The notes under the pieces: generated by a model | The model's database searches: none | What the model saw: only the letters and a program-made list of their open reading frames with translations | Told to the model about the DNA's origin: nothing | Program-made: the position numbers and the translations under genes | Shown: positions 5,601 to 38,647 of the stretch, in pieces | Layout: each line of letters opens with the position of its first letter | How positions within the stretch are numbered: position 1 is the first letter of the stretch | Origin: a virus | Lineage: Duplodnaviria > Heunggongvirae > Uroviricota > Caudoviricetes | Strand: one strand, 5' to 3' | IMG/VR virus record: IMGVR_UViG_3300044294_000233 | DNA: 64,000 nt

Positions 5601-6119
5601 ATGTCTAATTTCCTTAACGGTCAACTGGCATATTTGAGTGGTCCAATCGAACAGTGTTCCGCCAAAGCAAACTGGCGTCCCGAAGTCATCAAAACGCTCA
5701 CCGAACGCTACGGGATGAACGTCTTCGACCCTCACGCCGACCCCAAACAACAGTGGGCCGACGACTTGAAGAAGGCCCGTACCGAAAAAGACTACGCGAC
5801 GATGGCGAAGATCGCGCGTAAGTTCGTTCGCAAAGACCTTCAAGTGGTCCAGCGGTCTGACCTCGTCATCGCCTACCTGCCGTTCGGGGTTCCGACCACG
5901 GGCAGCCACCACGAGATCTTCCTCGCCAATCTACTCAAAAACCCCGTGCTGCTCGTCTGTCCGCAAGGCAAAGAGTATAATCCTCTGTGGTACTTTGGGT
6001 TCATCCCCGACGATCAGATGTTCGGGAGTTGGGACGAACTCTACCAGTACCTCGACAAAGTTCATAACGGCGAGATGAAGTACAACTACCGTTGGGACTT
6101 CATCTGCAACTTACTCTGA
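5601..6119 (+). CDS. Nucleoside 2-deoxyribosyltransferase-like protein (DNPH1/Rcl-like fold).
   Basis: AYLSGPIEQ at the N-terminus and TTGSHHEIFLANLLKNPVLLV match the family pattern YLAGP ... SxGTxxExGxAxxxxKP. Confidence 0.45.
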   Translation: MSNFLNGQLAYLSGPIEQCSAKANWRPEVIKTLTERYGMNVFDPHADPKQQWADDLKKARTEKDYATMAKIARKFVRKDLQVVQRSDLVIAYLPFGVPTTGSHHEIFLANLLKNPVLLVCPQGKEYNPLWYFGFIPDDQMFGSWDELYQYLDKVHNGEMKYNYRWDFICNLL

Positions 6120-6126
6120 GGCAGCA

Positions 6127-6747
6127 GTGTCAGACAAACCCTACTTCGGCGTGTGGCAGTATCTCGGCATCGTCAACGAAGGGACGCCGAAGGTTGCGGC
6201 CGAGGTGATGAACGTTTCCAACAAGAAAACGTGTACCGTCAACCACCGCCAGTTCGACAATATGGCGGTCGGCTCCTACTACACGCACGAAACGAAACAC
6301 TGGAAAGCGGTCCAGATCACCGAAGATCAAATTCCGGTCTTGCTCGAAGAACAACAACAAGCAATGGAAAAGATCGAGGCGGCTGCTCGGAAGAAGAAAG
6401 AAGACAACATCGCCACGGGGCGGTTCCAATACTTCTACACCGAGTACAACGGCGGCAAGGCCGAGAACATCATCGAGTTCCTCAGTGACAAAGTCGAGGA
6501 CTTCTGGAAGATCTTGGCCGACAACCTCAACAGCGGCCAACGCACTTGCGGACGCCCCCGTGAGAACCCGCTGACGGTCGATCAACTCAAGCAAGAAGAG
6601 AGAATGGTCAAGTTCATGTCGGTGGTGCAGCCGGGCGACAAGCTCGAATGGTACACTTGGAATGGCGGTTTCCTGGCGTTCTCTTCCGGCCCCTGCATTA
6701 CGCGGGACGGGGCGCAAATCGCCTACACGCCGTGGATGGCGTCCTAG
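6127..6747 (+). CDS. Hypothetical protein.
   Basis: Clean 206-aa ORF with balanced composition, immediately after the preceding gene. Confidence 0.45.
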   Translation: MSDKPYFGVWQYLGIVNEGTPKVAAEVMNVSNKKTCTVNHRQFDNMAVGSYYTHETKHWKAVQITEDQIPVLLEEQQQAMEKIEAAARKKKEDNIATGRFQYFYTEYNGGKAENIIEFLSDKVEDFWKILADNLNSGQRTCGRPRENPLTVDQLKQEERMVKFMSVVQPGDKLEWYTWNGGFLAFSSGPCITRDGAQIAYTPWMAS

Positions 6748-7202
6748 TATTCGTCTTCGGGCGTCCAGAGCCTCTTCTTCTGGATGTCTTCTGGCGAGAC
6801 GACGATGGCGGGTATTGTTTTGACGCCCGCCTTTTTGTACGCCCAGTACCTGTGATGCCCGTCAATGATCTGATATTTGAAACGCGAGTTCGGAACCCCT
6901 CCGACCGACAGCATTTTGTTCCCGTCCCACCTCGGATTTGACTTCCCCTTCAGTTTCACTTCGCGGACGTAAACCGGCGGCATCTTCTCGCCGGCCTTGA
7001 TGCCAGCAAGGATCTTCTGCATGTTTTCCCGGCTGGCCGGGAGGTCCATTTTGGAGGCCCGCTCGTAGTTTATGATGCTGTCGATGTCCAGCATTTGAAC
7101 AGGCTCGTCGGCGAACGTGTCGTCCACCATAGCGCCTTTCGACTGGGGGCTGGTATAGATCGTGACACGGGTCGTTTCGACCCACTGGGTGAACGTGAGC
7201 AT
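6744..7202 (-). CDS. ParB/Srx-like nuclease-domain protein.
   Basis: KYQIIDGHHRYWAYKKAGVKTIPAIVV matches the ParB N-terminal domain motif (DGxHR ... IP). Confidence 0.5.
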   Translation of the reverse strand: MLTFTQWVETTRVTIYTSPQSKGAMVDDTFADEPVQMLDIDSIINYERASKMDLPASRENMQKILAGIKAGEKMPPVYVREVKLKGKSNPRWDGNKMLSVGGVPNSRFKYQIIDGHHRYWAYKKAGVKTIPAIVVSPEDIQKKRLWTPEDEY

Positions 7203-8554: not shown

Positions 8555-8591
8555 GGTCCTCCTCGGCGGGTTACTTTATCTACGGTTCAGA

Positions 8592-9104
8592 TCAGATTTT
8601 GGCGAGCAGACCGAGGTTGTAATAATCGAGTTCGATGAACTCTTTCCACGCCCCGCCCTCGCGGTCGTGGTAGCTCGCCCCTTTGTTCATCCACTGAAGC
8701 TCTGCCTCCTTGTGATCCCCGTAGTACCCAAGAAGTTCTTCGCCGGCCGGGATGTCCCTCGTGAACCTGTAAATCACTTGTCCCGCGTCGTTGCTTCTCC
8801 GTGCCAGCCCGCGAGCGAATTCGAGTTTGACATTCTGTTTCGCGGTGTCCGGGGTGTGATTTATCATCCCGCCGTAGCCCATCGGCACGATGTTGGCCTC
8901 TTGGTTGTCGTGACCGTTGAACTTGTATCTGGTCGCGTAGGCGGTACACTTGTCGGCGATGCCGCCTTTCTTGACGTAGACGCCGATCACCTCGATGTAG
9001 TCGCCCTTCTTCAGATCCACGGCGGCGAAACACCCCATGCCGGCGTTCTCAATTGTCGATGGCATCAACGCGAACCGCAGATCGGTTTCTTCTACGAAAT
9101 TCAT
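8592..9104 (-). CDS. SET-domain protein (putative protein lysine methyltransferase).
   Basis: NAGMGCFAAVDLKKGDYIEVIGVYV matches the SET N-terminal GxG/FA pattern. GYGGMINHTPDTAKQNV corresponds to NHSCxPN, and IPAGEELLGYYG to the GEEL...Y motif. Confidence 0.5.
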   Translation of the reverse strand: MNFVEETDLRFALMPSTIENAGMGCFAAVDLKKGDYIEVIGVYVKKGGIADKCTAYATRYKFNGHDNQEANIVPMGYGGMINHTPDTAKQNVKLEFARGLARRSNDAGQVIYRFTRDIPAGEELLGYYGDHKEAELQWMNKGASYHDREGGAWKEFIELDYYNLGLLAKI

Positions 9105-9379
9105 TGCTTCTTCTCCAGTTTGCCTTCGCGGATCGCAGCCACAAGCTCACTCAGTGTCACGGGGAAACCGAGGAACTCTTCGAGACAGTCGAGGAAGTGC
9201 TTTTGGATCTCGCCGTGCAGCGTCTTCTTGGCCTGTGGGTCGTCGCCACAGTACATGATCGCGCGGGAGAGGTCCGATTCACTCAGTTCGTAGTCGAAGG
9301 CTTCGTTGTCGAAGACCAGATACCGCTTCGGTTTGCCGTTTTCTTCAAGCTCTAGGGTGCTTACTTGCAAGGTACTCAC
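9101..9379 (-). CDS. Hypothetical acidic protein.
   Basis: 92-aa ORF with a 4-nt overlap with the SET gene. Confidence 0.35.
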   Translation of the reverse strand: MSTLQVSTLELEENGKPKRYLVFDNEAFDYELSESDLSRAIMYCGDDPQAKKTLHGEIQKHFLDCLEEFLGFPVTLSELVAAIREGKLEKKQ

Positions 9380-9764
9380 GATACTCCTTGTGTGCTTCCA
9401 GTAGTTCTTCTCTCGTCATCGTGTTCTGACGCAACACGCACAACATTTTGGTCATCAGGTAAGTGAAAGCCCGGTGTCTGGTCGTGTCTATGCAGGGGAG
9501 CGAACTAGCCGCTCTTTTCATTATTTCGCGATGATTTGCGATCTTTTCTTCCAGAGGAAGGTCCGGCTTCGCAAACTCAATAACGTTGCGAGCCATGATC
9601 GTCAAAATCACCGCGAGCTTGTCGCCCCACTCTTTTTTGTCTTCGGCTTTTTTCCATTTGTTGACGATCTCATCGATACCTTCGAGAGTACGTCTGTCGG
9701 CTTGCCTTTTCTGCTTTGCATAGCTGCGCTTCAACCAATCGTTCATTATGCTCCTGTAGCCCAA
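9345..9764 (-). CDS. Hypothetical protein at the edge of an AT-rich island.
   Basis: 139-aa ORF with lower GC than its surroundings. Its overlap with 9101..9379 suggests the true start may be further downstream. Confidence 0.35.
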   Translation of the reverse strand: MGYRSIMNDWLKRSYAKQKRQADRRTLEGIDEIVNKWKKAEDKKEWGDKLAVILTIMARNVIEFAKPDLPLEEKIANHREIMKRAASSLPCIDTTRHRAFTYLMTKMLCVLRQNTMTREELLEAHKEYREYLASKHPRA

Positions 9765-9954: not shown

Positions 9955-10974
9955 CTATTTTGCGAACGTTTTTTTGTTTAACAATCTACTGATGCTCGAC
10001 TGTGATGTGCCGATAATGCTTGCGACCTCTTCTTGATCCTTACCTTCTGCCAGAAGCCTTAATGCTTGCGTTCTGTCTTCTGCGGTCATTTTTTTGTGTT
10101 GTCGCACCATCGGGTTTCCCAGATGTTTCCATCCTTGCCCAGAAGCGATGCGTGTCACACACGCTTCGGTCACACCAAATATGGCCGCGACTTCTTTACG
10201 AGAACGACCTATCTGCCTCAACCGAAAAATCTCCTGCGATTTCTCGTCGTTTAATTTAGACTTTCCGTGGTTGGCTCCCTTGTTGTCTTTCTTGACGTAC
10301 CCGGAGGTGTCCGTTTTGTAACCGAAGCAGTCCCACTTGATCTCTGGCCTTATAATGTCAATGAATTCAAAATACGCTTCACGGTTGACACGAAGTAAAA
10401 ACTGACTGCGGTCTTTTTTGACTCTCGACTTGACAGCCTTGATCGACAAGTCACGTTTCATTACTTCCGCCAGGAAAACAACCTCTTCTTCGGTAAAACC
10501 ATTGGTGCATAGTTTGGCTTGGGCGTCTCTAGCTTGATTGACCCCGTCATCCATGTACCATATCGCCATCGATAGCGGAGTCAGTTTGAGATCGTTAGGA
10601 ATGACCTTCCTGATTCTGCCGTTCACCAACTGAGGGGCATACCACTTCTTGCCCATTTCCGTCCAAATCAGATGATTGCAAGACTCATATCTCCAAGTCG
10701 GATATGGTTCACACTGCACTCGACCGATCTTGCCGTCGATAATTTTGGCTCGATGAGACTTCATAACAATTTTTGCACATCTGGACCAGCCTCCTAGCTC
10801 ATCTAAAAAAAACTGCATGTAGCTTTCTTTTGGAAAGTTTTTATGATCGGCAAAGCTCTGCTGAATCAGCCAATTCCAGTTAACAGGTTGACGGCTAAGA
10901 CAGCCATCGCCAAGCATACTTCCTATGAATATCTCATGCTGACGGGTAGTCAATTGCGGGTATAAATTCTTCAT
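9955..10974 (-). CDS. LAGLIDADG homing endonuclease with tandem C-terminal helix-turn-helix domains.
   Basis: Two LAGLIDADG-type motifs are present (IFIGSMLGDGCLS and MAIWYMDDGVNQ). The C-terminus has two sigma70 region-4-like HTH repeats (EIFRLRQIGRSRKEVAAIFGVTEACVTRI; ALRLLAEGKDQEEVASIIGTSQSSISRLL). GC is low relative to the flanks. Confidence 0.7.
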   Translation of the reverse strand: MKNLYPQLTTRQHEIFIGSMLGDGCLSRQPVNWNWLIQQSFADHKNFPKESYMQFFLDELGGWSRCAKIVMKSHRAKIIDGKIGRVQCEPYPTWRYESCNHLIWTEMGKKWYAPQLVNGRIRKVIPNDLKLTPLSMAIWYMDDGVNQARDAQAKLCTNGFTEEEVVFLAEVMKRDLSIKAVKSRVKKDRSQFLLRVNREAYFEFIDIIRPEIKWDCFGYKTDTSGYVKKDNKGANHGKSKLNDEKSQEIFRLRQIGRSRKEVAAIFGVTEACVTRIASGQGWKHLGNPMVRQHKKMTAEDRTQALRLLAEGKDQEEVASIIGTSQSSISRLLNKKTFAK

Positions 10975-20531: not shown

Positions 20532-21071
20532 TTACATGCCCAGGTTGACAATTCTTTCGGCCCCAGGCAAATTGTTGCTGCTATAAACGACCTCGAAGCT
20601 GAGATCGATGTCCATCTTAAATGGAGTAAGCTTGTCTTCATCCCACGCCACGTCGGTCGGGAATTTCACACTGTAACTTTTCAGAACCGCGTTCAAAGGC
20701 TGGTTCCCCACACTCAGAAGCTCCCCGCACTTCAACTGACAGATCAGCGGCGGCGCATACGGACCCGGTCCCGTGTTCCTCGGATAGACACAGGACTCCA
20801 GCTTCCTCATCAAGATCAAGTTGTCGTTGATGTCCTGCTTCGACACGACGAACAAGTGCATCGCCCAACTGATCGACCTGTTTTCCGAGTGGCTGAACGC
20901 CTTGATCGGGAACGAACGACCAATGATCGTCGTGTCAGGATAACTGGCGCTCTTGCCGTCGCTCAGTTCGGGCAAGTTGTTCATGAAGATCGGGCCGTAG
21001 CCGGGAATTGTGATGTAACAATTCCTGATAGGTTTCAGTCTGCACGAGCCTTTTTCCGTAGCTCTAGCCAT
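20532..21071 (-). CDS. Tail protein, immediately downstream of the tape-measure gene (gpU / DNA-circulation position).
   Basis: 179-aa ORF whose start overlaps the stop of the tape-measure gene. Confidence 0.35.
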   Translation of the reverse strand: MARATEKGSCRLKPIRNCYITIPGYGPIFMNNLPELSDGKSASYPDTTIIGRSFPIKAFSHSENRSISWAMHLFVVSKQDINDNLILMRKLESCVYPRNTGPGPYAPPLICQLKCGELLSVGNQPLNAVLKSYSVKFPTDVAWDEDKLTPFKMDIDLSFEVVYSSNNLPGAERIVNLGM

Positions 21072-24000
21072 TATCTGGTCCTTACCATGTTGGTGGCACC
21101 CTTACCTGCGGAACTGTTGAAGTCGCCAACGGGTGCGCGGTAGTAAGCAGCCGGCTTGTCGGGACGCGAATATGTATTCGTGTCCCCGCCCGGTGCCGTG
21201 TTGCTTCCAGAACGCGGCGTCATCAGCCGCAACATGGCCTGAAGCACGCTGAGGATCTCGTCGTTGGTCATCTTGTTCTCTTCAATCGCCTTCTGCAAGT
21301 TGCTGAAATCGACCGCGTTCTTGTTGCCACCGGCCGGCGGCTGAGAAGTCGCCTGATCTCTCATGATCGTCTTCTCAACGTCCAAGTTGGCCGCGCCCGT
21401 TGTCGAAGCGGTCTGTACCGGCTCAGGCGTACTCAATCCGGTCTTAGCGGCCGGGATGCTGACAGGAGCGCCGGCACCCGGCACGCCACCGCCAAGCGGC
21501 TTGTCTTTGGCCATTTGGCCGATTGACAACACGTTGCTCTGCAACTGTTTAACCGTCTCGATGAACTTTAAAGAGTCGGTCAACGCCTGATTCGTGTCGC
21601 CCGCCGCCTTGATCTTGGCCTGCACACCCATCAGAGTCGTCTTGACCTCTTCGTTGGTTCCGAAGTTGGTGGCGACCGCCTCGACCGTCTTCAACACCGA
21701 CACCATGAAGCTGTTGCCCGACGCGATCTTGGCCGTAATTTCTTTCTCAACGTCTTTGATGGCATTGAGTTGCGTCAGGTTGTTGGTGGTCTGCTTGATC
21801 ATGTTGACGGCGTTGTTCGCCATCGTGAAGATTTCCGCCAATTTCTTGGTGTAGTCTTCTGTTTCCTTCAGACCCGCCGCCATTTCATCCATGCGGACTT
21901 TCTGTCCGGCGATGGTTTCGAGCAACGCCTTGCCGCCGGCAAAGTCGAAGCCTTTACCGATGTTCTCTGCAATCCTCTGGACGGTCGGCACGAACTGCTT
22001 GCTCTGCGCGATCTTCTCGGAGATCTGGTTCTCGTAGAAGTCCAAATCACCGAACATCGACATGTACTCGCTGGTCTTCTGGATGTCACCGATGACACTG
22101 GACGACCGCTCGAACAGATCCTTGATGTCGTGGGTGTAGTTCTCGACAATTCGCAAAGCACTTTGCATCGATGTGATTTGTGGAGATTGTTGACCCATCA
22201 CATCAACCAAAGAATTAGTATCGTTCATGCCCATCGACTCGGCGTTCTGTTCCGCGAACGCACTCACGAACTCGGCTAAGTTGCCATTTTCAGGGTTGCC
22301 CAAACTCCCCATGTTCATAGACTGACTTAGATCAACAGAAGCCATAGCTTTAGCTGACGCGGCCATGCTTTCCATAGCCTGAGCCATCGTCTTGAACATT
22401 TCGTCCATCTTGGTGATGCGGGCAACGGCGTCGGTCATCTCGCTGTCTTTCGGCCATGTCTGCATCGGCTCCATCACGCCGCGACGGATGATGAAGCCCG
22501 CTTCCCACATGAACATGTCCATGTCGCGGTACGCGCCCCAAATGCCCGAACTCTTCATCATCTCGCGAGCGCCGGCCGTCGCCTCGCTCAAGCTCTGAAC
22601 GATTGACGGCAACTTTGATACGATCTCTGTCATCTTGTCGAGCTTGGCGATAGCGTCGTCCGCTTCTTTCTGTGGCGGGAATCCGGTCGTGATCGGCATC
22701 ACAATACCGAAGTTCAACATCGAGGCAACGTTATAGAACCATATCGTAAATCGTGTTACCTCGTTGCCCTCGATCTTGTTTTGATCTAACAGTGCCAAAC
22801 CTTCTTTAATCTTGGAGTACAGATCCTCCATGAACTTCGGCAATTTGGCAACGATCTGCGTCATTCCTTCAAGTCTTCCGCCCATGTCCTGAACTTCGTC
22901 CACGGTCGGGAACTGCGTCTTGATCGGAATCACCATACCTTCGGTCAGCAAGCGGGCTACGTTCGCGAACCATGTCGCGAACGTTTCGATTGCGTCCATC
23001 TTCATCCGCATTTTGCTGCTTTTCAGGATTTTCTGAATTCCACTGCCGAGAGTGTCAATCATGGTTCCGATGGCCGGAAGCATATCGGCCAGACCTTTCA
23101 TCACATTTGCAGCCATTTGAATGTAGCGTGGGTTTAACATAATGCCCTCGCCCTCGGCTTGGCCGGCACCGAATATAGGGCCAATAATACCATGTGATAT
23201 GAAACTTAAAATCGCCGTGAAGTTCTGCTGGAAACCTTGTTGCAACTTGGCTAACGTTTTCTGCAACTTATTCTTGCCGCTGAACCAGCCTTTGCTGCTC
23301 AGATCGGCAATTGGGCCATTCAGTGCGTCAATCACAGGTGGAATAGCAGGTAGCATTTCTGCCAGCCCCTTCATAATCTTACCGGCGGTTTGAACATCTC
23401 GTGGATTTAGTTTAGTGCCAAAAGCACCGGCACCGATACCAAATATCGGATCAATAATACCGTAAGAAATGAAATTCAAAATTGCCGCAAAACTTGAATG
23501 GAAACCGTCTTTTAGTTTATTCAGAGTTTTTTCTAATTTGTTACTGCCGTATCCAAACCAACTTTTTTTAGACAGATCGGCAATTGGGCCATTCAGTGCG
23601 TCAATCACAGGTGGAATAGCGGGTAGCATATCAGCCAGCCCCTTCATCACGTTCGCGGCCGTCTGAATGTCGCGAGGATTGAGTTTAACACCTGCGGCAC
23701 CGGGACCAATGCCAAAGATTGGATCAATAATGCCGTAAGAAATAAAACTCAAGATTGCTGCAAAGTTCTTACTGAAGAAACCTGTTGTTACCTTAAGAGC
23801 TTTTTCCATCTTGCTTGGCCCAACAAGACCCCACCAACGCGGTTCCATCAACGGTAATAATTCGTCGGTTAGTGACTTGATGACTGGCGGAATCGTACTA
23901 ATCGTCTTGGCAATCGCCTCGCAAATTTCACCAGCTTTTTTCACCCCTTCAATGTCAACTGATTCGGCGAACTTGGAAAGCATGTATGCCAAGAACTGGA

Positions 24001-27000
24001 ACGGCCCCATCATCACGAGGAATGCCAACGCGCCCATCCATATAAACGTGGAAGCCAAAGTTGAGAATATCAAAAGCACGCCCAATAACGATAGTGACGC
24101 CGTTGCCGAAATCATTTTCCAAGACAGGCTCCTAATCGTGTCGGTCAACGAGGTGAACGAATCTTGAATGGCTTGCATTCGTTCTGGGGTCAGGCCCATG
24201 TCGTCAATGATCGTCCGGCCGAAGTTGGAGATCGCACTGCCAAGAGCCAAAATCGGGATCGCCAGCACCGCGAAGGCACCGACGCCCAACATCGCGAGGC
24301 TCATCATCAGAACGGAGAAGATGCTCAGAACGCCGAGGACCGCCAATTTCGCGGTGGCTCCCAACATCGACATGCACAATTCGCCAATCGTCTCAGACAG
24401 CGTCACGAACGTCTCGCCGATCTGCTTCATCCGTTCCGGGGTCAGACCCAGTTCGTCAAGCGTGTCGCCGAACTCGGCGATGATCTCGGCCAGAGCGAGA
24501 ATCGGCAAGCTTACCAGTGCGAATGCTCCCACGCCCAACCACATCAAGCCGTATGCGTAAAGCAGGAACGGGTAGGCGATACCCAACATGCTCCAGCCCG
24601 GAGTCGCCTCAATCAGTGCGTAGGAGATTGCCCCAATACCGATTGCCAGTACCAGCCACGTCGCCGCGATGTCGAACATCCGACTCGGCGTCAACCCAAG
24701 CTCGTCAATTACGATTGTCCCGAACGCGGCCAGAATCGCAGCGAACGCCACGATTGGCAAACTCACTAGCGCGAAGGCCGCAACCGCCATGAACAACAGG
24801 GGGAGCAGCGACCAGATCACACCCAGACCGACACCCATCGTTACCCATCCGGGCAACGATGCCGTTAGAGCGTAACCGATGGCCCCGACCGCGACGGCGA
24901 GGATCAACCATGTCGCTGCAATCTGGAACATACGGCCCGGAGTCAATCCGAGTTGATCAATTACGATGTACCCGAACCCTGCAAGAAGTGCCGCGAACGC
25001 GATGATCGGCAGACTCACTAAGGCGAATGCGGCCACTGCGTTTAGCAACACCGGCATCAACGCCCAGATCACCGACAGACCGGCACCCATCGTTACCCAT
25101 CCGGGCAACGAGGCGGCAAGAGCGTACCCGATGGCTCCGACCGCGACGGCGAGGATCAACCACGTCGCTGCAATGGCGAACATGCGGCCCGGACTCAGGC
25201 CGAACTTGTCGATGACAACGTATCCGAACAGTGCGAGAAGGCCCGCGAACGCGATGAGCGGCAAGCTGACTAGCGCGAACGCCGCCACCGCACTCCACAG
25301 CATCGGATAGATCGACCACACGGCACTCAGACCGGCACCCATTGTCGCCCATCCCGGCAACGAAGCCGTGAGAGCGTACCCGATGGCTCCGACCGCGACG
25401 GCGAGGATCAACCACGTCGCTGCAATGGCGAACATGCGGCCCGGAGTCAACCCGAACTTGTCGATCACGACGTAACCGAACAACGCCATGATTGCGGCGA
25501 ACGCGATCAGCGGCAGAGTCACGAGTCCGAACGCACCTACAGCGGCCCACAGTTCTTTGTGGAGCGTGTGCATCATCTTCGTGGCGACCGGGAGTTGTGC
25601 GTACATCGGCCCAGACCGGACAATCGCTTCCGCGATTCCGGCGATACCGAGAGCCAACGCGATCCACGTTCCGGCGATCAGGAGCAACCTGCCCGGACTC
25701 AGCCCCAACGCACCCAGAACGATCTTGCCGAAGATCGCGAGTTCCGCCGCAAACACGAGCAGCGGACCCGACAACTTCGCCAACGCCTTAGCGCCCTTCC
25801 ACATGTTCTTGACCATCGCGTTGATGTCCTTTTCGGCATCCGCGAGTTTGTCGAGGTGTGGCTTGGCGTAGTACAAGGCGGTGCCGATCAGTCCAGCCGC
25901 TCCCATGATCACGCCGATGATCGCGGCCGTCTCGATGACCGTCTTGATGTCCAGCTTCAATTTGCTGAACAACATGTTAGCCAACTTGATCAACACCGCG
26001 CCCAACAGCACGATTCCGATTGTCAGTGCCGCGATGATGCCGGCCGCTTTAGCGATTCTTGGTCCGTCCCCCTTCAGTTTCTCGATCTTGTCTAGGATCG
26101 ATTTGGTGTCGTCGCCACCAGCCGACGCCTTGCTTTTTTCTTTGGCCGCTGCCCCGCCCGCCTTCTTCTCCGCTTTGGCGACCGCTCCTTGTTCGATCTG
26201 GGCGGCATTGGCCTTATTCTTCTTGCCGATGTTTTTGAACTCGTCGTTCTCGATCCCGTTGGCCTTCGGACTGCACAGGCAGTGAAGCAACTGACGCAGC
26301 AACCCTGCTACCGTGTCGTCTTCGACGTGAGACACGCCGCCCAAACCGTCTTTTGCCAAAGCCTCGACGCCCTTGCCCGCATCAACTCCTGAACCAGCCG
26401 CCGCACCGGGTGCAACGTCCCCCGCCCCGCCCTTCTTCTTGCCGCCGTAACCGAAGATCTTGCCCAAGCCTTTTTTAAGCACACCCATCACACCGAAGTC
26501 CTTGTCGGCCCGCCACCGTGCGATGGACAACGCCTGTTGTGCCGCCATCATGCCCAAGAGCGGAGCCAATACGCCCAACACTCCCGTCAAGTTCATGTAA
26601 CTTGAAAGGAAACTGCTGGTGAAGTTCCTCATCGTGTCGTTCAGTTCGCGGACGCCCTGCTCGATCTTGCTCATCGGGTCCAGAGCGGCCTTCTGTGCGG
26701 TCGCGGCTTCTTGTTCGGCCTTAGTCAACTTGGCCGACAGTTCGCGGAACGCCGCAGGGTCTTTCAACGCCTTCTCGATCTCAGAAGAGTCGATACTCAG
26801 TTCCGACTTGCCGGACGCCTTCAGCGACTCGTTGACACCCTTCAAAGCTTCGTTGATGGCGTCACGGGCTGCACCGGCGTTGCTGCCCCACGACTTACCC
26901 ATCGCCTTCAGGTCGCCCTCGAAGTCCTTCCTTCTTTCTCCGAACTTGGACAACGCGGCGTTCATGTCCTTAGCGCCCTTAGCCGCCTCGTCCAAACTCG

Positions 27001-37096: not shown

Positions 37097-38647
37097 ATGA
37101 TGAAAAAGTTCACTTTGTTCCGCGAAGAACGAGACGCCAAGACCCCCATCTCGTCCAAAATCAAACTGCAAAAGCAAGAAGGCTCTGCGGAGTTTTCTCC
37201 TTTCCGCGTCGATAAGGCTACCCGCCCGAACCTCCGCACACTGATCCAAGCCTTCAAGGGCAGCGGTCAGGTCGGCCTCGGCTACACCACCATCGACAAG
37301 TCGAAGGGCGAACACGAACCGCTGATGAAGGCCAAGAACTTGTGGCTCACCGGCGGCGCGGTTCGCGACCACCTCAAGGGCAAAACCCCGAAGGGCTACG
37401 ACCTCGTTACGGACGCCACTCCTTCCGAAGTCCGCATGATTCTCTCCAACTCGGAACAACCGTTTACTGAGGTCAAGCCGAAAGACGGCGAGATGGGTCA
37501 GGACGAGCGGTACGCCGATCTGCCGAGCGGCAACAAGCGTCGGTGCTTCTACGCCAGCCGTTGGGACGGACAGGGCAAAGAGATCGAGATCACCGTCGAG
37601 ATAAACGGCGAGAAGTTCGAGCTTGCGTCCCTCGGCAAGCACGGCAAAAGTCGCCGGGTGAACCCGGACAAAGCCGACGTTGCGACCAGCGTCGAAGAAG
37701 ACAGCATGGGTCGCGACTTCACGATGAACGCCATGTATATCCCATTGAGTCAAAGTGACGGCGAGAACAGCGAATTGATTGATCCGCATGGTGGCGCACA
37801 CCACCTGAAGGCGGGCGAGGTCAAGTTTATCAACAGTCCTATGGACAAGATGCGTGACGACCCGATGACGGCATTCCGTTACCTCAATCAAACTGGCAAG
37901 TTCGGAAAGTTTTCGGGAATCGGCGACAAGGAAAAAGCGGCGATTGGGCAGTTCAAAGACATGGCCGACGTTGACCCGTCCGAGATCCGCAAATCGTTCC
38001 TCAGCGGCCTCGAAGATCCCGACATGGACGCCAGAGGGTACATGGGCGCGGCTAAGGGTCTGGGCCTTCTGAACGTCGTGTTCCCTGATCTCGAATTCCG
38101 CGAAGACGACATGCCGCCGGACTTCCGTGGCGACCGCTGGTTGGCACCGGCTTGGGTTCTCAGGGACAACGACCCCGAAAAGGTCAAGAAGGTACTGGGC
38201 GGCGGCGGCTGGAGCAAACAAGAAGCATCGGACATCGCCTATCTGGTCAAGATCGCATCTTGGGCTGAAAAGGATGGGTTCAGTCCCGACAAGCTCAAGG
38301 ACGTTAAGGGCCACACCGGGCTGACCAAGAGCAAGATCCGCGAATGGCTCCAAATGATCAACAAGGGTCAGGGCGGCGAAGCGGAAGGTCTGTTCAAGGA
38401 CGGCGAGGACGAAAACGATATGGGCGGCGAGGAAGGTCCGCAGGAGAAAAGAATGGGAGCGGCCAAGTCGCTCACCAGACCGTCTTCTGACGAAGGGGAT
38501 GCAGAGGAGAAACCGGAAAAGAAGGATGACGGCGGCGAGAAAAAGGAGTCGATGTCTTGGGGCCGTATGATGGAACGCATCAAGAACCGCCCGGCCCAAC
38601 AGGAGCGTCCGACCGAGTCGGCTGGTTGGGTTCCACTCATCCGCTGA
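37097..38647 (+). CDS. tRNA nucleotidyltransferase (CCA-adding enzyme) / poly(A) polymerase-family protein.
   Basis: The head domain has the Pol-beta nucleotidyltransferase motifs LWLTGGAVRDHLKGKTPKGYDLVTDATPSEV (GGxVRD...D.D) and MGRDFTMNAMY (RDFTxNA). The C-terminus is an acidic/Lys-rich tail. Confidence 0.7.
   Translation: MMKKFTLFREERDAKTPISSKIKLQKQEGSAEFSPFRVDKATRPNLRTLIQAFKGSGQVGLGYTTIDKSKGEHEPLMKAKNLWLTGGAVRDHLKGKTPKGYDLVTDATPSEVRMILSNSEQPFTEVKPKDGEMGQDERYADLPSGNKRRCFYASRWDGQGKEIEITVEINGEKFELASLGKHGKSRRVNPDKADVATSVEEDSMGRDFTMNAMYIPLSQSDGENSELIDPHGGAHHLKAGEVKFINSPMDKMRDDPMTAFRYLNQTGKFGKFSGIGDKEKAAIGQFKDMADVDPSEIRKSFLSGLEDPDMDARGYMGAAKGLGLLNVVFPDLEFREDDMPPDFRGDRWLAPAWVLRDNDPEKVKKVLGGGGWSKQEASDIAYLVKIASWAEKDGFSPDKLKDVKGHTGLTKSKIREWLQMINKGQGGEAEGLFKDGEDENDMGGEEGPQEKRMGAAKSLTRPSSDEGDAEEKPEKKDDGGEKKESMSWGRMMERIKNRPAQQERPTESAGWVPLIR

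What the first reader, a model, noticed from the sequence alone, without database searches (positions are those of the whole stretch)
8592..9104. SET-domain protein embedded in the structural operon
The 170-aa ORF has the N-terminal GxG/FA pattern, an NH(T)P...QNV motif equivalent to NHSCxPN, and a GEELLGYYG motif equivalent to the SET ELxFDY motif. SET lysine methyltransferases are known in giant viruses (vSET) and in a few bacteria. A phage-encoded copy would be a candidate for methylating a host nucleoid or ribosomal protein, or a virion protein.
Basis: partly seen in the sequence, partly recalled or inferred. Interest (0 to 1): 0.65.

Follow-up and report, generated by a model that had tools for sequence, protein, structure and literature searches.

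The report
Huge-phage SET methyltransferase with obligate partner
The ORF is a real SET-domain methyltransferase gene of a very large phage, and it always travels with a small acidic partner gene of unknown fold; what the enzyme methylates is still unknown.

Summary

The position in the tail/baseplate gene run holds in 13 of 22 distinct loci. In 8 others the gene lies among replication and nucleotide-metabolism genes, so a virion target is not implied.

The new result is a conserved partner, the 92-aa acidic ORF at 9101-9379. It overlaps the SET start (ATGA). A SET gene lay downstream in all 29 loci found with the partner alone. The partner also occurs fused to SET in both orders. It has a confident predicted structure with no solved relative, and it was not found in 185,579 species genomes.

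A possible gp55-like late sigma factor (9345-9764) precedes the pair in some loci of both contexts; that evidence is weak.

Phage SET proteins are already annotated but none is characterised. The substrate is unknown. This is a new variant of a known kind, of moderate interest.

The parts
8592..9104 (-). SET-domain methyltransferase gene, 170 aa
9033..9041 (-). GxG motif (G22-M-G24), the AdoMet-binding motif I of SET domains
   Evidence: G22 and G24 are invariant in 21 homologues and in 7 loci down to 36% identity. The role is assigned from established knowledge of SET domains.
8856..8861 (-). N82-H83, the core of the NHSCxPN-type motif (here NHTPD...QN)
   Evidence: Invariant. It aligns to the NHS of PBCV-1 vSET and to the NHS of the Plasmodium protein PFL0690c in the profile alignments.
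8718..8741 (-). EELLGYYG motif (E122-G129), equivalent to ELxF/YDY. Y128 is the presumed catalytic or channel tyrosine. G126 sits at the position I take to be the Phe/Tyr product-specificity switch.
   Evidence: E122, E123, L124, G126, Y128 and G129 are invariant. The motif aligns to 'EEITISYGD' of vSET and 'EELLYDYGD' of SET8/KMT5A. The switch assignment comes from my own knowledge of DIM-5 and SET8.
8592..8714 (-). Family-specific C-terminal region (about residues 131-170), predicted helical at low confidence, with invariant F156 and Y162
   Evidence: pLDDT is 41-56 for residues 131-170. F156 and Y162 are invariant. vSET (119 aa) has no counterpart. A role as a lid of the substrate channel or as the docking site for the partner is inference.
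9101..9379 (-). Partner gene: 92 aa, acidic (pI 4.7), no known family or fold
9101..9104 (-). ATGA overlap of the partner's stop codon and the SET start codon, suggesting translational coupling
   Evidence: The junction reads ...AAGAAGCAATGAATTTC. The same 4-nt overlap is present in L004, L007 and L010. Gaps of 1-8 nt occur in L001, L002 and L008.
9345..9764 (-). 139-aa basic protein (pI 9.7), possibly a gp55-like late sigma factor, associated with the pair in some loci
   Evidence: Homologues lie directly upstream of the partner in the window, L001, L004/5, L007, L010 and L040/41, which covers both genomic contexts. phrog_234 'late sigma transcription factor' hits 1 of 5 members at E=1.7e-4. 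Pfam Sigma70_r2 gives E=0.15 for 1 of 5. hhalign to region 2 of sigma factors aligns the motif but is not significant. Inconclusive.

Best explanation
The ORF encodes a catalytically competent, minimal SET-domain AdoMet-dependent methyltransferase, most likely a protein-lysine N-methyltransferase. It works as a complex with the 92-aa acidic protein encoded immediately upstream and translated in a coupled way. The two genes form a module found only in very large phages.

The SET core would bind AdoMet through the GxG and NH motifs and transfer the methyl group in a channel lined by Y128. The partner probably docks on the poorly ordered C-terminal helices and either completes the substrate site or selects the target. 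The target is a host or phage protein that is not a conserved neighbour. Placement in the tail/baseplate operon is an accident of one lineage.

Shown here: SET homology and fold, conservation of the catalytic motifs, strict gene pairing, gene fusions, and restriction to phages. Inferred: enzymatic activity, lysine as the acceptor, physical complex, and the partner's role.
For: SET identity:
- Pfam SET scores above threshold over the full model.
- The family profile hits solved SET enzymes, 4rz0 at 4.8e-5 and vSET 1n3j at 4.4e-4.
- The catalytic motifs are invariant down to 36% identity.

Pairing with the partner:
- The partner is adjacent in every locus read.
- In the independent test, 29 of 29 IMG/VR loci retrieved with the partner alone carry SET directly downstream on the same strand.
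- Junctions range from a 4-nt overlap to an 8-nt gap in the six loci measured precisely; a further locus, L006, has a 395-nt insertion.
- The pair stays together although its neighbourhood differs between two contexts.

Fusions:
- P0038 is partner followed by SET (E=1.3e-9).
- P0045 is SET followed by partner, in the opposite order (E=3.3e-6).

Other points:
- The partner has no column that is always Lys; the best column is K in 35 and R in 8 of 43 sequences. It is therefore more likely a subunit than the substrate.
- Pattern scanning found no partner relative in 185,579 species genomes.
Against: - The SET model is only of moderate confidence (pLDDT 71, pTM 0.62).
- The complex is inferred from genomics only; no multimer prediction was possible.
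- The P0038 fusion lies next to an A-run on a contig whose name suggests a long-read assembly, so it could be an indel artefact.
- P0045 is known from a single 842-nt contig.
- The genome scan for the partner relied on one degenerate peptide pattern, so divergent cellular homologues could be missed.
Confidence: 0.6

Rival explanations
1. The enzyme methylates a virion protein (tail fibre, baseplate or the neighbouring 258-aa protein) during assembly. That would explain its place in the structural operon.
For: In 13 of 22 distinct loci the pair sits between the tail-collar-fibre-like gene and the 258-aa and 182-aa genes. It keeps that position while SET identity falls to 36%. No convincing same-strand terminator separates it from the tail genes.
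Against: In 8 distinct loci, including the published 595-kb phage LR756511, the pair lies among DNA polymerase A, OTCase, DEAD helicase, RNase T and SIR2 genes. The structural position is therefore not a conserved link. The 258-aa and 182-aa neighbours have no recognisable family.
Confidence: 0.15
2. The enzyme methylates a host protein as part of takeover. Candidates are a nucleoid protein, a ribosomal protein, RNA polymerase or a sigma factor. The possibly sigma-like upstream gene would hint at the transcription machinery.
For: Prokaryotic SET enzymes with a known native substrate act on DNA-associated proteins: cpnSET on Hc1, and Go1-SET on MC1-alpha (PMC3980110). A candidate gp55-like late sigma factor precedes the pair in both genomic contexts.
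Against: No substrate evidence at all. The sigma assignment is weak: 1 of 5 members at E=1.7e-4, and hhalign P=0.096. That gene is also missing next to the pair in most loci.
Confidence: 0.3
3. It is a small-molecule methyltransferase of the BurB type (a SET-fold enzyme that methylates free methionine to S-methylmethionine), or it acts on another metabolite as an auxiliary metabolic gene.
Confidence: 0.1
4. It is a non-catalytic SET/PR-like binding module, or the partner is an inhibitor (an antitoxin-like regulator) of a harmful methyltransferase rather than a subunit.
Against: The NH and Tyr catalytic motifs that inactive PR domains usually lack are invariant here. Pfam PRDM2_PR is below threshold (E=0.024, 14.8 against 27 bits). 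Fusion of partner and enzyme in both orders is unusual for an inhibitor. There is no match to PADLOC defence models.
Confidence: 0.07

Closest known systems
PBCV-1 vSET (A612L; PDB 1n3j, 2g46, 3kma), the minimal viral SET histone H3K27 methyltransferase
   Same: It is a stand-alone, virus-encoded minimal SET domain without pre-SET or post-SET zinc clusters. The GxG, NH(S/T) and EE(I/L)xxxYG motifs align (E=4.4e-4).
Plasmodium falciparum PFL0690c (PDB 4rz0), a small SET-domain putative methyltransferase
   Different: It is eukaryotic, its substrate is unknown, no partner gene is known, and it lacks the C-terminal helical extension.
Prokaryotic SET proteins: Chlamydia cpnSET/NUE, Legionella RomA/LegAS4 (PDB 8swi), Bacillus anthracis BaSET, Methanosarcina Go1-SET
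   Different: They are cellular, mostly effectors aimed at eukaryotic histones, often larger and multi-domain. None is reported with a coupled small partner. The family here was found only on phage-type contigs.
BurB (PDB 9l4t), a SET-fold methionine S-methyltransferase of Burkholderia
   Different: It acts on a small molecule. It shows no detectable sequence-profile relation here, and no partner is described in the paper as read.
SET enzymes that need accessory subunits (MLL/SET1 with WDR5-RbBP5-ASH2L; EZH2 with EED-SUZ12)

Membership tests
SET domain (Pfam PF00856) | Sequence-profile match above the curated gathering score | tested here: met
   31 bits against 22.4, E=3.6e-7, model positions 1-105 of 105. 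20 of 21 homologous clusters carry a precomputed PF00856 hit.
SET domain (Pfam PF00856) | N-terminal GxG AdoMet-binding motif | tested here: met
   A21-G22-x-G24-C-F-A, with G22 and G24 invariant.
SET domain (Pfam PF00856) | NH of the (R)FxNHSCxPN motif | tested here: met
   N82-H83 is invariant and aligns to NHS of vSET and PFL0690c. The motif reads NHTxD...QN. The Cys and Pro of the canonical motif are absent, as in other minimal SETs.
SET domain (Pfam PF00856) | ELxF/YDY motif with the conserved tyrosine | tested here: met
   E122-E-L-x-G126-x-Y128-G129, with Y128 invariant. The residue two positions before it is an invariant Gly in this family instead of Phe or Tyr.
SET domain (Pfam PF00856) | SET beta-fold with the C-terminal pseudoknot | tested here: inconclusive
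SET domain (Pfam PF00856) | AdoMet-dependent methyl transfer to a protein lysine | not testable with these tools
   This needs enzyme assays.
vSET-type minimal viral SET (PBCV-1 A612L) | SET core of about 120 aa with no flanking regions, a homodimer, and histone H3K27 as substrate | tested here: not met
   The protein is 170 aa with a conserved C-terminal extension and has a heterologous partner rather than being alone. The oligomeric state and the substrate are not testable here.
PR domain (PRDM subfamily of SET) | Match to PR-domain profiles, usually with loss of the NH and Tyr catalytic motifs | tested here: not met
BurB-type SET small-molecule methyltransferase | Specific sequence relation to BurB | tested here: not met
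T4 gp55-like late sigma factor (for the upstream 139-aa gene) | Profile match to late sigma factor or sigma-70 region 2 | tested here: inconclusive
   phrog_234 hits 1 of 5 members at E=1.7e-4. Pfam Sigma70_r2 hits 1 of 5 at E=0.15. hhalign aligns FDxxKGKAFNYFTTxxxxxLRQ to the FxYRRGYKFSTYATWWIRQ motif of region 2, but with P=0.096. There is no PDB sequence hit.

The most novel reading that the evidence does not exclude
The candidate late sigma factor, the partner and SET together form a phage transcription-takeover module. In this reading a two-subunit SET methyltransferase, built with a subunit of a new fold, methylates RNA polymerase, a sigma factor or a nucleoid protein to switch the cell to phage gene expression. 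It would be the first protein-lysine methylation mechanism of host takeover known in a bacteriophage.
Probability: 0.08. Interest if true: 0.8.

Novelty: new variant of a known kind. Interest (0 to 1): 0.5.

Why it matters
Protein-lysine methylation by SET enzymes is central to eukaryotic chromatin. In prokaryotes it is known mainly from a few pathogen effectors and one archaeal enzyme. In my literature searches no phage SET protein has been characterised.

This family gives a compact, testable system. It consists of a 19-kDa enzyme and a 10.5-kDa partner, always co-encoded, sometimes fused, and restricted to very large phages. If active, it would show what a bacterial virus gains from methylating a protein, and on which target. 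It would also add a minimal two-subunit SET enzyme with a partner of a new fold.

If the substrate turns out to be trivial, or the enzyme is a metabolic methyltransferase, the result is an ordinary auxiliary gene.

Tried and rejected
- DNA similarity of the region to 50,697 phage records found nothing. A protein search found only LR756511.
- PHROGs, NCBIfam and PADLOC gave no match for SET, the partner, or the 258-aa and 182-aa neighbours.
- I considered the partner as the lysine substrate and judged it unlikely, because no alignment column is always Lys.
- The sigma-factor reading of the 139-aa gene was tested four ways and stays inconclusive.
- Cluster look-ups of more distant SET relatives gave no organism names.
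- The consistent +1 frame relation and the 35-68-nt overlap between the 139-aa gene and the partner were noted. I did not pursue them as a frameshift signal, because the loci are homologous and not independent.

Full report
**1. The observation**

The window has an ATG-initiated ORF of 170 aa at 8592..9104 on the minus strand.
- AGMGCFA (residues 21-27)
- NHTPDTAKQNV (82-92)
- GEELLGYYG (121-129)

I checked the nucleotide positions by hand. GMG lies at 9033-9041, NH at 8856-8861 and EELLGYYG at 8718-8741. Two other ORFs overlap it (8587-9033 minus, 8667-9293 plus). They have no homology support and are what a 56% G+C sequence produces by chance.

**2. Is it a SET domain?**

Yes.
- **Single sequence.** It matches Pfam SET (PF00856) end to end, positions 1-105 of 105, with 31 bits and E=3.6e-7 against a gathering score of 22.4.
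- **Homologues.** The first homology search found 21 clusters of 166-177 aa at 47-100% identity. Twenty of them carry a precomputed PF00856 hit. They come from contigs of up to 586 kb, and the window's own protein lies on a 476-kb contig.
- **Conservation.** In their alignment G22, G24, N82, H83, N91, E122, E123, L124, G126, Y128 and G129 are invariant. The same residues hold in seven loci down to 36% identity.
- **Family profile.** A profile of the family reaches solved SET proteins: Plasmodium PFL0690c 4rz0 at E=4.8e-5, PBCV-1 vSET 1n3j at 4.4e-4, then EZH2, SET8/KMT5A and S. pombe Set7. The NH and Tyr motifs align in register.

I could not inspect the pseudoknot itself because I had no access to the model coordinates. 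The two segments that form it are confidently modelled and are covered by the alignments.

The top structural hits are PR domains, many of which are inactive. This family, however, keeps the NH and Tyr motifs, and it fails the PR-domain profile (E=0.024, below the cut-off). An active AdoMet-dependent methyltransferase is therefore the reasonable reading.

One family-specific point concerns the residue two positions before Y128. From my own knowledge of DIM-5 and SET8, this is the Phe/Tyr switch that controls product specificity. Here it is an invariant glycine. That would leave a roomy active site, which is inference only.

**3. Context**

All the neighbouring genes listed here lie on the minus strand. 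Before the SET gene in the direction of transcription are, in order:
- a 2599-aa protein;
- a gpV-type spike (PF04717);
- gp25 (PF04965);
- a baseplate wedge protein (phrog_219);
- a P2-I-like 1051-aa protein;
- a tail-collar-fibre-like 158-aa protein;
- a LAGLIDADG homing endonuclease with HTH domains;
- a 139-aa basic protein;
- a 92-aa acidic protein.

After it come proteins of 258 and 182 aa with no known family and a ParB_N-like protein. Further on are PKD-domain proteins. 'Embedded in the structural operon' is therefore a fair description of position. The consensus scan showed no convincing same-strand terminator between these genes.

The arrangement recurs without the endonuclease on a 586-kb contig (L001). 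It also recurs on 36-kb and 15-kb contigs whose SET is only 36% identical (L008/L009).

Other relatives carry the gene in a quite different place, between OTCase and DNA polymerase A genes on one side and a DEAD-box helicase, RNase T and SIR2 on the other. These are L002, L004, L006, L007 and L012, plus the published 595-kb huge-phage genome LR756511.

Of 22 loci with distinct SET sequences:
- 13 are in the tail context;
- 8 are in the replication-type context;
- 1 is too short to tell.

The structural position is a property of one lineage and says little about the target.

**4.

The 92-aa ORF at 9101..9379 ends in an ATGA overlap with the SET start codon. A homologue of 84-97 aa lies directly upstream of SET in every locus I read, whichever the neighbourhood. 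The junctions are -4, -4, -4, +1, +4 and +8 nt, with the third 4-nt overlap in L010. In one locus (L006) a small opposite-strand ORF is inserted between the two genes.

The partner family has 58 clusters of 67-140 aa, mostly 80-100, none with a Pfam domain. Its invariant residues are E26, F28, D29 and G71.

As an independent test I searched two collections with the partner alone.
- **Species genomes.** No relative was found in one genome for each of 185,579 bacterial and archaeal species. This is a pattern-based scan, so divergent copies could be missed.
- **IMG/VR viral contigs.** 29 loci were found. A local hmmsearch showed that all 29 carry a SET gene of this family immediately downstream on the same strand. 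In one of them (L015) a tightly packed 207-aa gene is inserted between the two.

Two of the representatives found with the SET profile are fusions.
- **P0038 (246 aa)** is partner followed by SET. hhalign to the partner profile gives E=1.3e-9 and 96% probability.
- **P0045 (229 aa)** is SET followed by partner, the opposite order. hhalign gives E=3.3e-6 and 88% probability.

The first fusion lies beside an A-run on a contig whose name suggests a long-read assembly, so it could be an indel artefact. The second cannot arise by read-through of the usual gene order, but it is known from a single 842-nt contig.

Strict adjacency across two contexts, translational coupling and fusion in both orders together are the classical genomic signature of two proteins that work as one unit.

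The partner is acidic (pI 4.4-5.2 in seven loci). No alignment column is always lysine; the best has K in 35 and R in 8 of 43 sequences. That argues against the partner being the lysine substrate and favours a subunit, adaptor or regulator.

The SET C-terminal 40 residues are conserved (F156, Y162) but modelled poorly in isolation. They are a plausible docking site. This is inference.

**5. A possible third member**

The 139-aa basic protein at 9345..9764 has homologues directly upstream of the partner in the window, L001, L004/5, L007, L010 and L040/41. That covers both contexts, but not most other loci.

Its most conserved stretch is (F)DxxKGKAFNYFTTxMLCxLRQ. This recalls the FDxxRGxKFSTYATWWIRQ motif of sigma-70 region 2, which I recognise from my own knowledge. 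The tests gave the following.
- One of five members hits PHROG 234, 'late sigma transcription factor', at E=1.7e-4.
- One of five hits Pfam Sigma70_r2 at E=0.15.
- No PDB sequence matches.

I record it as a lead, not a finding.

**6. What it most likely does**

The most likely reading is an AdoMet-dependent SET methyltransferase, probably acting on a protein lysine, that functions with its small partner. The target is not identified.

- **Virion-protein reading.** It fits 13 loci but not the other 8.
- **Host-protein reading** (nucleoid, ribosome, transcription machinery). It fits what is known of prokaryotic SET enzymes with native substrates: cpnSET on Hc1, and Go1-SET on MC1-alpha (PMC3980110). 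It has no direct support here.
- **Non-catalytic or inhibitor-regulated reading.** It is unlikely, given the invariant catalytic motifs and the fusions.

**7. Comparison with what is known, and novelty**

SET domains in giant viruses are well known. A Foldseek search of BFVD with the model also returns several 'SET domain containing protein [uncultured Caudovirales phage]' entries and a Myoviridae entry. Stenotrophomonas phage Ps15 ORF62 is annotated as a SET protein in print. The mere presence of a SET gene in a phage is therefore not new.

Three full-text searches found no functional study of a phage SET protein. The comparative review of jumbo phages that I checked does not mention one.

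What is new here is the definition of a subfamily restricted to very large phages. Its features are a conserved C-terminal extension, a glycine at the switch position, and above all an obligate, sometimes fused partner of unknown fold. I rate it a new variant of a known kind, with interest 0.5. It is a clean and testable system, but the biology (the target and the benefit to the phage) is entirely open.

**8. Limits**

- There is no biochemistry.
- The SET model is of moderate confidence, and no multimer prediction was possible.
- The genome scan for the partner used a single degenerate pattern.
- Many IMG/VR loci are near-duplicates; the 41 fetched loci and the window together give 22 distinct SET sequences.
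- Each of the two fusions rests on a single contig.

Noticed in passing
window 9955-10974 (-): A free-standing LAGLIDADG homing endonuclease (PF03161, E=4.7e-21) with two C-terminal HTH domains sits between the tail-collar-fibre-like gene and the 139-aa gene. It is absent at the same place in the syntenic loci L001 and L008, so it looks like a recent mobile insertion in the tail operon.
   Followed up: partly
window 9345-9764 (-): The 139-aa basic protein may be a gp55-like late sigma factor. Its 3' end overlaps the partner gene by 35 nt here, and in the four relatives whose frames I checked (L001, L004, L007, L010) it is always in the same relative frame, with overlaps up to 68 nt (my own arithmetic on the coordinates, not a tool output; sigma evidence).
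   Followed up: partly
window 6127-7202: A ParB_N-like 152-aa gene (6744-7202, minus) and a 206-aa ORF of unknown family (6127-6747, plus) lie between the 182-aa gene and the nucleoside 2-deoxyribosyltransferase-like gene (5601-6119, plus). L001 has neither, which suggests a second insertion relative to the 586-kb relative.
   Followed up: no
window 62527-63657 (-): A strong ADP-ribosylglycohydrolase match (PF03747, E=1.9e-73). It is another enzyme of protein or nucleotide modification in the same phage.
   Followed up: no
window 37097-38647 (+): A 516-aa protein with a PolyA_pol head domain (PF01743, E=4.1e-20), possibly a CCA-adding or poly(A) polymerase-type nucleotidyltransferase. A 503-aa ORF overlaps it on the opposite strand and is probably spurious.
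   Followed up: no
window 21071-28870 (-): A 2599-aa ORF lies at the start of the baseplate gene run. It has no significant family match, only a sub-threshold Baculo_PEP_C hit. By size and position it could be a tape-measure or giant tail protein.
   Followed up: no
L015 3231-3854 (+): In one IMG/VR relative a 207-aa gene of unknown family is inserted between the partner and SET, with a 4-nt overlap on one side and no gap on the other. It is a possible extra module component or cargo.
   Followed up: no
L002 7121-7717, L006 608-1201, L015 2338-2958: In several replication-context loci a papain-like peptidase (Peptidase_C39/C70 hits in L002 and L006; the L015 ORF was not scanned) lies next to the partner-SET pair. 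It is on the same strand in L002 and L006 and on the opposite strand in L015.
   Followed up: no
P0050, P0064, P0067, P0071: Some metagenomic proteins of 750-890 aa match the SET profile in 5-6 separate stretches, which suggests tandem arrays of minimal SET domains in one polypeptide. Their origin is unknown.
   Followed up: no
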